Below are positions 6,001-9,000 of a stretch of 43,673 bases of DNA, piece by piece (position 1 is the stretch's first letter; every line of letters starts with the position of its first letter). The stretch comes from Nitrospirae bacterium CG2_30_53_67. GTDB lineage: Bacteria > CG2-30-53-67. A program made the position numbers. Location: positions 1-43,673 of the forward strand of contig MNYV01000120.1 in NCBI GenBank assembly GCA_001873285.1. The letters are read 5' to 3'.

Positions 6001-9000
6001 GACGACGTTTTTGTATTTGCCGAATTCGAGATTGTCGATCTTCGCGGCATCATAAGGGTTCCATCCGGTGGCGAGGACCATGGCCCCGACATTCAGGTCC
6101 ACGGTCTCGGGTTTCATCTCCAGGTCAATGGCGTTGTAGGCGCAGGCTGCGACGCATTTTGCGCAGGCCTTTCCCTTGCAAACGCTCATATCGATCACGT
6201 ACCGCATGGGGAAGGCCATCTCGTGGGGGAGGTAGATCGCCTTGGTCTTGTCCATGCCGAGGTTGAAGTCGTTGAGACGCTCCACCGGGCAGGCCTCTAC
6301 GCACTTGCCGCAGGCCGTGCACTTGGCGTTCACATAACGGGGCTGAACCTTGACGCTCACCTGATAGCTGCCGTCACCGCCGGTCACCTTGTCCACCTGT
6401 GCCAGCGTGTAATATCTGATGTTTCGATTGGGGCGGATCCGCCGGAAGTTGATCTCCATGCCGCAGTAAGGCGGGCAGAGCTTGGGGAAGTATTTGTTCA
6501 TCTGGGCCACCCGTCCGCCCAGATAGGGGTTTTTCTCGACAATGACTGTCTTGTAGCCGGCTTCGGCCGCTTCAATGGCCGTGGTCATCCCGCTGATTCC
6601 TCCGCCCACGACCAGTATTCTTTTTTCCTCTGCCATACTACTCCTCCATCAATAATGATAGGTTCTTCTCCCCTTGAACCCTTATGATTTTACAAACTTT
6701 TTGGGAAATGATTCATTCTTTTTTACCTTTAATGTCTCCTCAAGCATCAGGATATATTTCAGGTATTTGAATCCGAATTTCATCAGCGCGATCTCGTCGG
6801 TTTTCATCTTCTCGACCTCTTCTTTATCCATATCAAAAGAATCGAGAAACCTGCTCTCAAAGATAAATTTCTTGAATCTGTCTATATCATAACTTGCCAT
6901 GTAAAGCATGCCCTGTTTCTTCGAGTCGAGTTGGGGCTGCCCGGAGGCATTTCTCCTTAACTGGATCTCTTTCCATTCCCTGTTCATCTCATCATAGAGC
7001 TCAACCCCCTGGTCGATCCTCCAGGTCTCGATGGTCCACTCCTTTTCCTCCTGATAACCGAGGCAATTAGGGTCTCTTACAAAAAAGTAGAATTCTTCAT
7101 TTGCCGGCCCTTCCTTTGAGCCGCTTATCATCATAAGCCCCTGGCCAACCGGATAATATCGGCAGTTGGAAGGACGGTCTTCATAGATACTACAGCCTTC
7201 ATCCGTAACAAAGGGACATTTCCCTTCATCATCCGTCATCTTAAGCACTGCGTAAGGATGTGAGGTCTTTTCATCAGTATGGGTGTATGTGTATCTATCC
7301 AGGAACTCTCCTGATGAAATTCCCAATCTATTTTTCATCCTTACGATGTCATAAGGCGTAAGAAGCACATCCGCACGGCTGCAGCATTTGCTGAAACAGG
7401 CGATACTTTTATAACACCCGAATTTGAATTTGGAATTCAGTGTGCGCTTAATAGGTTCTACAAGCCTTCTACTCAAAAACATGGTTTAATCCTTTGTCCC
7501 GAAAATGTCATTCTCTGGCTTGACCAGAGAATCCAGTTCCGCTTTTTTCTGGATTCCCCGATCAAGCATGCCCTCGAATGTCTTAATCGGGGGTCGGGGA
7601 ATGACAGATGTGCCGACTTATCGGCATGTGGGTTTTGACTTCAATAGCTTATCCATTTCCTTATCTTTGAGTTTAAAGATTTCCTCGTTAAACAGAGTAA
7701 ATCTTACCCATCTATAACCAAAATTCAAGAGTTCTTCCTCATCTTCCTTGATCTTTTCGATAACCTCTTTCTCTACATCATATATATCAAAAAACCTGGT
7801 TCCAAAAAGGAATCTCTTGAATTCACCAAGGTCATAACAGGCCCTATAAAGCAGCTTTGCCTTTCCTGAATCAAGCTTATTATTCTGGAAATAATCATGA
7901 AAGGTAATCTCTCGATAGGCTTCATTCATTTTGTCATAGATGCCGATCCCCTGAGCCTTCTTCCACTCCCCTGCTGTCCATTGTCTTTCATCTTCTCCTC
8001 CAGAGGCTGAACTGCCTTTGGCGGAAAATCCAAGACATGAGGGCTTCTCCTCTATTAAAAATTCTTCTTCTTTAGAAGAAGCAGGGAAGACAGGATACAT
8101 CCTGCAGGACCATGGCCTGTCCTGATAAATACTACAACCATCCTCGGTAACAAAAGGACAACTCTTATTCTCATCCTCCATCATCTTAAGCACAACAAGA
8201 GGCAGCCCCTCATCTCCTAAGAGCGCAACCGTATATCTTTTTAAGAATTCTCCAGAGGACAGCCAGACCATCTTTCTCATCCTCAGGACATCATAGGGTG
8301 TAAGAAAGATATTGACATCATTACAGCAGGTGTTAAAACAAGAAAGCCCTTTATGACATGAAAATTTGAATCTGTCATTTAGAGAGAGCTTTCGTTGATT
8401 TTCAGTATATTTTTTATTCATAAACTATTCTCTATAAATTAACGCCTTAAATAATGAGATGCTGAAACAAGTTCAGCATGACAAGACAAAAGGTGTCATT
8501 CCGAACTTGTTTCGGAATCTCAAGACCCTGAAGTCCAGGGTGACAATTATCTTATGTCATTCCCCGATTAAATCGGGGGACGGCGTCTGGATTGTCCGAT
8601 CAAGTCGGACAATGACGGCATTGGAATTGATAATAATATACTTTCGTTTTCCTTATGTGCCGACTTATCGGCACGATTGTTCCGTTCTAAATTTTTGGAG
8701 GGGCGGCCTGAAAGGTCGCCCCTCCATACATCATCTCATGGTCTACTATTTAATTAAACGATTAAACGATAGGAATCATCGGTCTTTCGATGGTCTTCCA
8801 TTCCTTTTTAGCTGCATCATACTTCACATTGATAAAGTGTTTCTTGCTTTCATCCAAGTCCGGGAAGTCCAACTTGTGGTAATATCCGGGCCATCTTGAC
8901 TCTTTTCTGGCAAGCCTTGTTTTCACGCATGCCAGGCCGACATACATCCTGTGGACAGCCTCCCAGGCCCTCATCAGCTCATGATTGTTCTTCGCAGTAT

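What a model noticed while it worked through the whole genome (the two positions that open the first line are those of the whole stretch)
6682..8421. Conserved CxxCxxCC gene pair inside the apr-qmo operon: an unrecognised companion family of dissimilatory APS reductase [...]
Two tandem paralogues (Y1, 266 aa; Y2, 267 aa; 41% identical) lie between aprA and qmoA. They belong to a subfamily of PF03692 cysteine-cluster proteins that is linked to aprBA/qmoABC in gene order and co-occurs with AprA across phyla. The subfamily has no assigned function and no solved structure. They are candidates for a missing partner or maturation factor of AprAB.
Evidence so far: - Pfam PF03692, E 3e-10 and 1.6e-10. 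- Eight conserved cysteines in 50 homologues. - apr/qmo genes within 7 kb in 57 of 80 public loci, in two recurrent gene orders. - Co-occurrence with AprA in 251 genomes of one phylum: 105 both, 9 Y only, 7 AprA only, 130 neither. - Co-occurrence in 121 genomes of another phylum: 53 both, 1 Y only, 8 AprA only, 59 neither. - The Y tree follows gene context with the minimum number of label changes. - 1777 homologue clusters carry generic names only. - No PDB match better than E 0.4. - RNA-library contigs cover Y1, Y2 and the spacer between them. - Seven literature searches found nothing on this link.
(Added by a program. Inside this text positions count along the whole contig: contig position 1 is position 1 of the stretch shown here. 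"Call 12" and the like, gene names such as g00115 and contig names such as C1 are that model's own, and its searches are not shown. The text may have been shortened before it was handed on; [...] marks where a part breaks off. The agent that wrote the report below was given it as the finding of a first reader that could run no searches.)

Follow-up and report, generated by a model that had tools for sequence, protein, structure and literature searches.

The report
Cysteine-cluster gene pair tied to APS reductase
Two neighbouring genes for cysteine-rich, probably iron-sulfur proteins travel with the genes for APS reductase, a key enzyme of microbial sulfate respiration, and may be a helper of that enzyme that nobody has described.

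Summary
Y1 (6682-7482) and Y2 (7618-8421) are real minus-strand genes between aprA and qmoA. They are 41% identical, both match PF03692, and share eight invariant cysteines.

In a genome of the same genus, the flanking genes are 80-96% identical but aprBA is of another lineage and no Y genes lie there. So aprB-aprA-Y2-Y1 entered this genome as one block. In two other loci the same block sits in tandem before a second aprBA.

On an AprA tree, all 24 members of one long-branched clade have Y directly after aprA. Across 527 genomes in four taxon samples:
- AprA and Y together: 207
- Y only: 11
- AprA only: 45
- neither: 264

Y therefore depends on AprA, but AprA does not depend on Y. An obligatory "missing partner" is unlikely.

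My best reading is an AprBA-dedicated accessory iron-sulfur protein pair, most likely a transient maturation or activation factor. A redox partner is the main rival. No fold match, complex prediction or paper settles the function.

The parts
6682..7482 (-). Y1, 266 aa. PF03692 cysteine-cluster domain (residues about 20-115) followed by a subfamily-specific helical C-terminal domain.
   Evidence: ORF. Pfam E 3.1e-10. 1777 homologue clusters. Eight invariant Cys. AF2 model pLDDT 72.3 with helices at 151-257.
7618..8421 (-). Y2, 267 aa. Paralogue of Y1 (41% identity) with a ninth invariant Cys (C195) in its orthologues.
   Evidence: 1983 homologue clusters. Alignment A4 of 22 orthologues. Y2 forms its own clade of 32 rows (SH-aLRT 96) in the Y tree.
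7483..7617 (.). Y2-Y1 spacer, made of short palindromic repeat units of the host genome. Probably a secondary insertion.
   Evidence: Units of about 55-60 nt match 39 other places in G000. 7608-7626 is repeated exactly at 8655-8673. By my ORF calls, in 4 of 21 orthologous loci Y2 and Y1 overlap or lie 3 nt or less apart.
8422..8761 (.). aprA-Y2 intergenic region. Holds a GC-rich hairpin just after aprA (8691-8731) and more palindromic repeat units (inverted repeat 8455-8522).
   Evidence: Sequence. Inverted repeats I1 and I2. Contigs from 4 RNA libraries share 8456-8521 but continue into unrelated sequence, which marks a dispersed repeat.
8762..10687 (-). aprA, alpha subunit of APS reductase, of a divergent lineage acquired by transfer.
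   Evidence: TIGR02061 763.7 bits, against 911-972 bits in the other members of this phylum. 46% identical to the congener's AprA. Falls in the 24-row Y-adjacent clade.
10707..11150 (-). aprB, beta subunit, of the same acquired lineage.
   Evidence: TIGR02060 213.8 bits. 88-90% identical to AprB of pair-type loci and 67% to the congener's.
6637..11390 (.). Approximate extent of the replaced block (aprB-aprA-Y2-Y1). Lower G+C than the flanks.
   Evidence: DNA homology to the congener's locus L089 resumes at 6627 and is 87-95% at 11390-11630. G+C is 0.42-0.50 inside the block and 0.52-0.60 outside.
5386..6636 (-). qmoA (native; 89% aa identity to the congener).
3129..5381 (-). qmoB (native; 87% identity to the congener).
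1958..3166 (-). qmoC (native; 83% identity to the congener).
   Evidence: NF038018 438.6 bits.
588..1811 (-). sat, sulfate adenylyltransferase (native; 96% identity to the congener).
11712..12709 (-). HIT-family and HD-domain genes upstream of aprB. Native flank, conserved in the family.
   Evidence: Pfam HIT and HD. 91% and 80% identical in the congener, and also present in G004.

Best explanation
SHOWN
- Y1 and Y2 belong to a full-length subfamily of PF03692 proteins that occurs almost only in genomes with dissimilatory AprA.
- In this genome they arrived together with aprB and aprA as one four-gene block. The block replaced the native aprBA in front of the native qmoABC-sat.

INFERRED
- The eight invariant cysteines bind at least one [4Fe-4S] cluster. 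This is by analogy with FliB, the only characterised relative.
- Y2 and Y1 work together, probably as a heterodimer, in the AprBA lineage that always carries both. Lineages with a single Y would use one protein.

MECHANISM I COMMIT TO
- They are AprBA-dedicated accessory proteins that act transiently on the enzyme. They help to assemble, load or chemically activate AprB/AprA, or keep it active, through iron-sulfur chemistry. They are not a stable third subunit or an obligatory electron donor.

ODDS
- About 0.8 that the function is dedicated to AprBA.
- About 0.45 that it is of the maturation or activation kind.
For: (1) Block transfer
- The congener's locus L089 is HD-HIT-aprB-aprA-qmoABC-sat.
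- Its flanks are 80-96% identical to the window, but AprA is 46% and AprB 64-67% identical, and no Y gene lies there.
- Host-specific repeats sit inside the block's spacers, which argues against an assembly chimera.

(2) Same block elsewhere
- It sits in tandem before a second aprBA in L019 and L023.

(3) AprA tree of 67 rows
- One clade of 24 rows (SH-aLRT 100, stem 0.58) has Y directly after aprA in every row: 23 pairs and 1 single.

(4) Co-occurrence (both / Y only / AprA only / neither)
- 129/10/5/157 in 301 genomes.
- 51/1/15/84 in 151 genomes.
- 20/0/20/21 in 61 genomes.
- 7/0/5/2 in 14 genomes.

(5) Unlinked Y genes still co-occur
- Of 19 genomes whose Y locus shows no apr gene in the flank, 15 have AprA elsewhere.

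(6) Many distinct gene arrangements near apr
- Between aprA and qmoA.
- After qmoC-hppA.
- Convergent on aprA or on qmoC.
- Divergent upstream of aprB.

(7) The native single Y is gone
- It is not found in G000, and the syntenic contig diverges just before its expected place.

(8) FliB precedent
- FliB has a CX4CX3CC motif and eight conserved Cys, and holds one oxygen-sensitive [4Fe-4S] cluster needed for catalysis (PMC8598068; passages read).

(9) Why transient rather than a subunit
- Y is dispensable in 45 of 252 AprA-positive genomes.
- From recall, not from a call: AprAB has been purified and crystallised as a two-subunit enzyme.
Against: - No direct evidence of any activity, metal content or binding.
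- Sequence conservation is high for a chaperone-like factor (mean column identity 75% for Y1 and 69% for Y2). That fits an enzyme or a docking partner as well.
- Y1 is 58-68% identical to the single Y of loci whose AprA is only 45-47% identical, so Y does not simply co-diverge with AprA.
- The co-occurrence counts are not corrected for phylogeny. The centre genomes of three samples were chosen because they hold Y.
- G000 is a fragmented assembly of 183 contigs. Loss of the native Y rests on a contig end plus a negative search.
- RNA-library contigs are shallow (depth 1-4 over Y) and cannot exclude DNA carry-over.
Confidence: 0.45

Rival explanations
1. Redox partner. Y (here a Y2-Y1 pair) is a soluble iron-sulfur electron carrier or adaptor that docks on AprB. 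It feeds or tunes electron flow between Qmo or a low-potential donor and APS reductase. This would be the 'third partner' postulated for electron confurcation.
For: - Eight invariant Cys.
- Position between aprA and qmoA in 29 of 80 loci, and after qmoC or qmoC-hppA in 24 of 80.
- High conservation, similar to AprB and AprA.
- Ramos et al. 2012 (PMC3333476; passages read) could not get electron transfer with pure QmoABC plus AprAB. They proposed a third partner and noted that no partner gene is co-localised with the cluster.
- The block moved with aprBA and not with qmo, which fits a protein that docks on AprB.
Against: - 45 of 252 AprA-positive genomes with qmoABC-type loci lack Y, so it cannot be a general requirement.
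- No ferredoxin-type or other redox-domain match at E up to 1 in 37 members.
- At about 31 kDa with a large helical domain, it is unlike known small carriers.
- From recall: neither AprAB nor Qmo preparations were reported with such a subunit.
Confidence: 0.3
2. Pathway-linked but not acting on AprBA. Y handles a substrate, product or signal of the APS step (sulfite, AMP/APS, redox state) or regulates it, and so tracks aprBA without touching the enzyme.
For: - In one genome with an unlinked Y, the gene lies next to a TauE/SafE-family permease, a family named for sulfite export.
- In 7 loci Y directly follows the H+-pyrophosphatase gene of the sulfate-activation module. In one more locus it follows a DHH-type phosphoesterase gene.
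- Y is unlinked from apr in many genomes.
Against: - Neighbours of unlinked Y genes are heterogeneous, with no recurrent non-apr partner across lineages.
- The strictest association is with a particular AprBA lineage, and the moved block holds only aprB, aprA, Y2 and Y1.
- Five of six DsrA-positive, AprA-negative genomes lack Y. The numbers are small.
Confidence: 0.15
3. No functional link. Y is a generic YkgJ-type gene that hitch-hikes near apr genes, and the co-occurrence only reflects shared ancestry of sulfate reducers.
For: - PF03692 as a whole is widespread and unrelated to sulfur metabolism. It is found in 10 of 14 control genomes, none of which has AprA.
- Counts are not corrected for phylogeny.
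- 23 of 80 loci show no apr or qmo gene in the flank.
Against: - The association holds in four separate taxon samples, one of them archaeal.
- Y only is 11 of 218 Y-positive genomes, and at least two of those have Y at a contig start where aprA would lie (G169, G199).
- Many different gene arrangements keep Y near apr.
- The four genes moved together at least twice.
- Subfamily scores are well separated from generic PF03692 hits, for example 185.9 against 28.8 bits in one genome.
Confidence: 0.05

Closest known systems
FliB, flagellin lysine-N-methyltransferase of Salmonella (PMC8598068)
   Same: - N-terminal cysteine motif of the same style (CX4CX3CC in FliB, CX5CX3CC here).
- Eight conserved cysteines.
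- The paper relates its motif to PF03692.
- FliB shows that such a motif can hold a catalytic, oxygen-sensitive [4Fe-4S] cluster.
   Different: - No similarity detected beyond the cysteine domain, and no NCBIfam match for Y1 or Y2.
- Different genomic context and taxa.
- SAM dependence and methyl transfer are unknown for Y.
- Weak SET-domain rows in the fold searches are not significant (TM 0.21 or less, rmsd 11 A or more).
Generic YkgJ / PF03692 'CxxCxxCC' proteins (function unknown)
   Same: Pfam domain match above the curated cut-off in all 37 aligned members. Sources name the homologues 'YkgJ family cysteine cluster protein'.
   Different: - Spacing is Cx5Cx3CC.
- An extra invariant Cys140 and a helical C-terminal domain of about 120 residues.
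- Distribution restricted to AprA-bearing genomes, whereas the broad family is in 10 of 14 control genomes without AprA.
AprM and QmoABC, the known lineage-specific companions of AprBA
   Same: The gene is co-localised with aprBA, and its presence and arrangement correlate with the AprBA lineage. Meyer and Kuever described the same for qmo and aprM (PMC2211403; passages read).
   Different: - By sequence reading, Y is soluble, with no haem or flavin domain.
- It occurs together with Qmo rather than instead of it.
- It is missing from 45 of 252 AprA-positive genomes.
DVU0851 ('QmoD'), the last gene of the Desulfovibrio vulgaris apr-qmo operon
   Same: A gene of unknown function at the end of aprBA-qmoABC, about 26 kDa. 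It is co-expressed with the operon (PMC3125180 and PMC10920352; passages read). The single Y of 24 loci holds the same position.
   Different: - It is reported to have no homologues outside Desulfovibrio, whereas Y is widespread.
- In the genomes whose AprA scores highest against TIGR02061, Y lies far from apr (2.5 Mb away in G097).
- I had no DVU0851 sequence, so homology was not tested.
Dedicated maturation factors encoded inside respiratory operons, such as NarJ in narGHJI (recalled, not tested)
   Same: An accessory gene sits among the structural genes, is specific to one enzyme, is not a subunit of the final enzyme, and moves with the structural genes.
   Different: No sequence relation. 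Y has an invariant cysteine cluster and is far more conserved than such chaperones usually are.

Membership tests
PF03692 (CxxCxxCC, YkgJ family) | Score above Pfam's gathering cut-off (23 bits) | tested here: met
   41.1 and 41.9 bits. All 37 aligned members match.
PF03692 (CxxCxxCC, YkgJ family) | Name-giving CxxCxxCC spacing of the first four cysteines | tested here: not met
   The spacing is Cx5Cx3CC in all 37 sequences. The later C...GCxIYxDRPxxCRxYP part is kept.
FliB-type [4Fe-4S] methyltransferase | Sequence similarity over the whole protein | tested here: inconclusive
   No NCBIfam family matched at E 0.001 or less. That NCBIfam holds a FliB model is recalled, not checked. I had no FliB sequence to align.
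FliB-type [4Fe-4S] methyltransferase | [4Fe-4S] cluster on the N-terminal cysteines; dependence on SAM | not testable with these tools
   Needs anaerobic purification and spectroscopy. Only the motif resemblance is shown.
Ferredoxin-type 2x[4Fe-4S] proteins | Fer4-type CxxCxxCxxxCP motifs or Pfam Fer4 families | tested here: not met
   No Fer4 family at E up to 1 in 37 members, while AprB, QmoA, QmoB and QmoC in the same window all match.
HdrB/HdrD CCG-domain proteins | PF02754 cysteine-rich domain | tested here: inconclusive
   No match at E up to 1. HMMER filters drop weak matches. The shared 'CC' is a recalled resemblance only.
AprBA-associated Y subfamily (defined here) | Full-length match to the A1 profile (269 positions), clearly above generic PF03692 hits | tested here: met
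   451 and 415 bits for Y1 and Y2. Subfamily hits in other genomes score 161 bits or more. Generic hits score 19-29 bits.
AprBA-associated Y subfamily (defined here) | Occurs in a genome that has dissimilatory AprA | tested here: met
   207 of 218 Y-positive genomes have AprA.
DVU0851/QmoD | Sequence homology to DVU0851 | not tested
Only position and size are comparable.

The most novel reading that the evidence does not exclude
Y is a new functional class of PF03692 iron-sulfur protein that is mechanistically required by a large part of the world's APS reductases. One form of this reading is the long-sought extra component that lets electrons reach AprAB from Qmo or a low-potential donor. The other is a non-canonical [4Fe-4S] enzyme, as proposed for FliB, that installs a so-far unseen modification or cofactor state in AprA or AprB. 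The Y2-Y1 pair would be the specialised two-subunit form for a divergent, horizontally mobile AprBA lineage.
Probability: 0.25. Interest if true: 0.9.

Novelty: new variant of a known kind. Interest (0 to 1): 0.7.

Why it matters
Dissimilatory sulfate reduction and its reversal drive much of the global sulfur cycle. The APS reductase step is its least understood redox step. How AprAB is supplied with electrons has been open since at least 2012, when a third partner was postulated and it was noted that no partner gene lies in the sat-aprBA-qmoABC cluster (PMC3333476).

A conserved gene family that is present in about four of five AprA-bearing genomes sampled here is a concrete, testable candidate. 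It is nearly absent without AprA and moves together with aprBA. Homologues that are unlinked from apr appear to exist in genomes whose AprA scores highest against the reference model. These may include cultured model organisms, so genetics and existing mutant-fitness data could test the idea quickly.

It would also give a first physiological role to a branch of the large, unexplained YkgJ/PF03692 family. And it would provide a marker gene that separates AprBA lineages in metagenomes.

Tried and rejected
COMPLEX PREDICTION
- AprB + Y2 + Y1, each with an alignment and with Y1 as partner, scored 0.00 in both runs. The verdict was 'no answer'.
- This says nothing for or against binding.
- AprA + AprB + Y exceeds the 1000-residue limit and was not tried.

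FOLD SEARCHES
- Whole Y1 model (pLDDT 72.3): no Foldseek PDB match at E 0.001 or less. Best VIA Z was 4.2 over 53 residues of the helical tail.
- N-terminal domain alone (pLDDT 64.4): best VIA Z 3.3 and no Foldseek match.
- The models are of modest confidence around the cysteines, so I do not claim a new fold.
- SET-domain methyltransferase rows recur but with TM 0.21 or less and rmsd 11 A or more. I treat them as noise.

SEQUENCE SEARCHES
- The PDB search with the profile gave a best E of 0.37.
- The ESM Atlas gave only PF03692 clusters with automatic names. The C-terminal part alone gave nothing.
- The search for longer fused forms found none at E 1e-10 or less.
- One representative, P0295, is a radical-SAM + Y-like fusion. 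As a single case it is a lead only.
- Rfam on 6500-11800 gave only a sub-threshold hairpin hit.

IDEAS CONSIDERED AND DROPPED
- Y equals DVU0851/QmoD. Rejected as unsupported: in genomes with the highest AprA scores, Y is far from the operon. Homology was not tested.
- An alternative gene fills the aprA-qmoA gap in a Y-less relative. L112 shows no credible ORF there.
- DsrA as the true correlate. Only 6 DsrA-positive, AprA-negative genomes were available. Five lack Y, and the sixth has a Y fragment at a contig start. This is too few to be decisive.

LITERATURE AND OTHER
- The 'QmoD' literature search returned only unrelated papers.
- Pereira et al. 2011 and Zane et al. 2010 are not held, so I could not read them. 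Supplements were not consulted.
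Full report
WHAT IS THERE

On the minus strand the window carries, in order:
- an HD-domain gene (12053-12709)
- a HIT-family gene (11712-12056)
- aprB (10707-11150)
- aprA (8762-10687)
- Y2 (7618-8421)
- Y1 (6682-7482)
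- qmoA (5386-6636)
- qmoB (3129-5381)
- qmoC (1958-3166)
- sat (588-1811)

AprA, AprB, QmoC and Sat pass the curated NCBIfam cut-offs.

Y1 (266 aa) and Y2 (267 aa) each match only PF03692, at E 3.1e-10 and 1.6e-10. They have no NCBIfam family and are 41% identical. They are the only PF03692 genes found in this 2.37 Mb, 95% complete assembly.

THE FAMILY

- Y1 has 1777 and Y2 has 1983 homologue clusters in the 90%-identity collection. All named ones carry generic names.
- A profile of 37 Y1- and Y2-type sequences finds 3354 representative clusters at E 0.001 or less. Only 265 reach E 1e-30 or less, and these are the full-length relatives.
- Eight cysteines are invariant: C23, C29, C33, C34, C89, C97, C107 and C140.
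- The first four are spaced Cx5Cx3CC. This is closer to the CX4CX3CC of FliB than to the name-giving CxxCxxCC.
- Y2 orthologues have a ninth invariant cysteine, C195.
- The PF03692 part covers about residues 20-115. The rest is a helical domain specific to the subfamily (AF2 model, pLDDT 72.3).
- Only one characterised relative turned up in my searches. FliB holds one oxygen-sensitive [4Fe-4S] cluster on its N-terminal cysteines, and the cluster is needed for SAM-dependent methyl transfer (PMC8598068; abstract and passages read).

GENE ORDER

- 29 loci have the Y2-Y1 pair next to apr and/or qmo genes, typically aprB-aprA-Y2-Y1-qmoA-qmoB.
- 3 loci have Y1-qmoA at a contig start.
- 1 locus has aprA-Y-qmoA with a single Y.
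- 24 loci have a single Y downstream of qmoC.

In the Thermodesulfovibrionales-type loci, the stretch between qmoC and Y holds a pyrophosphatase gene. It is the H+-pyrophosphatase gene directly upstream of Y in 7 loci and a DHH-type gene in 1. There Y closes a sat-aprBA-qmoABC-hppA module.

Two of the 23 'no apr' loci (L045, L050) are this same arrangement cut by a contig end.

I also fetched aprA loci from 11 Y-positive genomes that I picked across the AprA score range of another sample. Y lay within about 7 kb in 6 of them, in new arrangements:
- convergent on aprA
- convergent on qmoC
- divergent upstream of aprB
- as a pair after qmoAB

It was not nearby in the other 5.

By my ORF calls, Y2 and Y1 overlap or lie 3 nt or less apart in 4 of 21 clean pair loci. 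That would suit translational coupling.

THE NATURAL EXPERIMENT

This is the strongest new evidence.

A genome of the same genus (G005) has the same locus, HD-HIT-aprB-aprA-qmoABC-sat. Its amino-acid identity to the window is:

| Gene | Identity |
|---|---|
| HD | 80% |
| HIT | 91% |
| QmoA | 89% |
| QmoB | 87% |
| QmoC | 83% |
| Sat | 96% |
| AprB | 64-67% |
| AprA | 46% |

No Y genes lie between aprA and qmoA there.

- DNA homology runs up to the 5' region of aprB and resumes at the qmoA start.
- The window's AprB is 88-90% identical to AprB of pair-type loci along its whole length.
- G+C is 0.42-0.50 in the block and 0.52-0.60 beside it.

Hence aprB-aprA-Y2-Y1 replaced the native aprBA in this lineage, while the native qmoABC-sat stayed.

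The spacers inside the block hold short palindromic units that occur at 39 other places in this genome. The block has therefore been resident in this genome, and an assembly chimera is unlikely.

G005 and four other relatives carry a single, distant Y (45-51% identical) on another contig. In the window's genome, the syntenic contig matches up to just before that gene, then diverges and ends. No third Y is found anywhere in the assembly. This suggests that the native Y was lost when the block came in. Because it rests on a contig end, it is suggestive only.

Two other loci (L019, L023) read sat-[aprB aprA Y2 Y1]-aprB'-aprA'-qmoABC. That is the same block added in tandem.

TREES

AprA tree:
- It has 67 rows. 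Hits covering under 90% of AprA were left out. It was built with a quick IQ-TREE search.
- It splits off a clade of 24 rows (SH-aLRT 100, stem 0.58).
- In every row of that clade Y follows aprA directly: 23 pairs and 1 single.
- The window lies inside this clade and its congener lies outside.

Y tree:
- It has 125 rows and was also built with a quick search.
- Y2 forms one clade (32 rows, support 96).
- Y1 forms another (34 rows, support 99), nested among the single Y genes of type-B loci.
- The single Y genes of the window's own phylum lie elsewhere.
- So the pair arose by one duplication and has stayed with one AprBA lineage.

A caveat applies. Y1 is 58-68% identical to single Y genes whose AprA is only 45-47% identical. 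Y and AprA have therefore not simply co-diverged.

CO-OCCURRENCE

I used the A1 profile at E 1e-20 or less (1e-15 in the archaeal class). I counted AprA as a TIGR02061 match over the cut-off, or a clear fragment of one.

| Sample | n | Both | Y only | AprA only | Neither |
|---|---|---|---|---|---|
| Phylum of G014 | 301 | 129 | 10 | 5 | 157 |
| Phylum of G015 | 151 | 51 | 1 | 15 | 84 |
| Class of G018 | 61 | 20 | 0 | 20 | 21 |
| Window's own small phylum | 14 | 7 | 0 | 5 | 2 |
| Total | 527 | 207 | 11 | 45 | 264 |

- The absences in the window's own phylum were rechecked at E 0.001 or less.
- At least two of the Y-only genomes have Y at a contig start, where aprA would lie.
- Of 19 genomes whose Y locus shows no apr gene, 15 have AprA elsewhere.
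- The relation is asymmetric. Y almost never occurs without AprA, but AprA often occurs without Y.
- AprA without Y includes a 100% complete relative (G004) with the same aprBA-qmoABC-sat locus.
- In the archaeal class, Y-plus and Y-minus genomes interleave among very similar AprA scores. This points to repeated loss.

Limits of these counts:
- They are not corrected for phylogeny.
- Three samples are centred on genomes chosen because they hold Y.
- Most genomes are metagenome bins of unknown completeness.

DsrA does not separate the cases well. There are 6 DsrA-positive, AprA-negative genomes, and 5 of them lack Y.

EXPRESSION

Contigs from four metatranscriptome libraries lie on the following:
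- Y1 (7179-7490, no mismatch)
- the spacer
- Y2
- aprA
- aprB

These are contigs at depth 1-12 (1-4 over Y). They show presence in RNA libraries, not transcription, and they cannot rank genes.

WHAT IT PROBABLY DOES

Shown:
- A cysteine-cluster protein pair exists here.
- Its occurrence, position and horizontal movement are bound to aprBA.

Inferred:
- It binds an iron-sulfur cluster, by analogy with FliB.
- Y2 and Y1 act together.

Because Y is dispensable in about one AprA-bearing genome in five, an obligatory electron donor is unlikely. From recall, AprAB and Qmo have been isolated without such a subunit.

I therefore favour a transient, enzyme-specific accessory role at odds of about 0.45. 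That role would be assembly, cofactor loading, activation or repair of AprB/AprA. This kind of gene typically sits among structural genes and moves with them.

The main rival, at about 0.3, is a facultative redox partner or adaptor at AprB. It would answer the 'third partner' proposal of Ramos et al. 2012, whose authors noted that no partner gene is co-localised with the cluster (PMC3333476). The high conservation of Y fits this rival at least as well.

A pathway-linked role not acting on AprBA gets about 0.15, and pure hitch-hiking about 0.05.

WHAT DID NOT HELP

- Fold searches.
- PDB sequence search.
- The protein atlas.
- Fusion search.
- The single complex prediction, which gave no verdict.

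NOVELTY

I made seven literature searches.
- None found a paper that links YkgJ/PF03692 proteins with apr, qmo or sulfate reduction.
- None of the 22 listed titles, of 26 papers that mention YkgJ, concerns sulfur metabolism.
- I read passages of Neukirchen 2023, Ramos 2012, Meyer and Kuever 2008, and of proteome or transcriptome papers on Syntrophobacter, Desulfococcus, Archaeoglobus and cable bacteria. None mentions such a gene.
- Pereira 2011 and Zane 2010 were not available. No supplements were read.

The protein family is known but unexplained. The AprBA-bound subfamily, its paired form and the four-gene mobile block appear to be new.

Noticed in passing
window 7483-7617 and 8440-8690: Both spacers around Y2 are built from short palindromic repeat units. 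7608-7626 is repeated exactly at 8655-8673. The units occur at 39 other places in this genome. Four RNA-library runs hold the 8456-8521 hairpin inside unrelated contigs. This looks like a REP- or MITE-like element family.
   Followed up: partly
window 8691-8731: A GC-rich 19-nt-arm hairpin lies directly after the aprA stop codon, without a clear T-run. It may be an attenuator or an mRNA-stabilising stem between aprBA and the downstream genes.
   Followed up: no
window 11712-12709; L089 1561-2549; L090: A HIT-family gene and an HD-domain gene sit directly upstream of aprB. This is conserved in the congener and in another family member. From recall, HIT proteins act on adenylylated compounds, so a link to APS/AMP handling is conceivable.
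   Followed up: no
L019 and L023 (loci): Two aprBA copies of different lineages (49-50% AprA identity to each other's type) lie in tandem in front of one qmoABC. The first copy carries Y2-Y1.
   Followed up: partly
L028, L032, L036, L037, L039, L045, L050, L054, L078: In Thermodesulfovibrionales-type loci, Y is followed by a conserved gene of about 430 aa (446 aa in L045; cut to 208 aa in L028) that matches only the AICARFT part of PurH-type enzymes. In seven of these loci the H+-pyrophosphatase gene lies directly upstream of Y.
   Followed up: no
genomes of the phylum of G015: 108 of 151 genomes match TIGR02061 at E 1e-100 or less, but only 61 pass the cut-off. Most of the rest hold a full-length AprA-like paralogue scoring 380-490 bits, and Y does not accompany it.
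   Followed up: no
L104 (G097) 9627-12121: In a genome whose AprA scores among the highest, the unlinked Y homologue lies between hisG and a TauE/SafE-family (sulfite-exporter-type) permease gene. The same gene order appears in a close relative (L106).
   Followed up: partly
protein P0295: A 690-aa protein joins a radical-SAM domain (residues 88-238) to a full Y-like region (452-684). It is a single case.
   Followed up: partly
window 19172-43125: A Wood-Ljungdahl gene cluster: MTHFR, a pterin-binding methyltransferase, CdhD-type subunits, ACS/CODH, a prismane-type CODH, NuoE/F-like genes, formate-tetrahydrofolate ligase and RACo. ZnuABC lies at 14256-16887.
   Followed up: no
window 35674-38856 (-): A 1060-aa ORF on the opposite strand inside the Wood-Ljungdahl cluster has no Pfam match at E 1e-8 or less. 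It may be a spurious long ORF or an unknown protein.
   Followed up: no
L085 11112-11283: A repeat of about 165 nt beside the congener's single Y matches 15 or more places in the window's genome at 83-97% identity. It may explain why the syntenic contig ends there.
   Followed up: no
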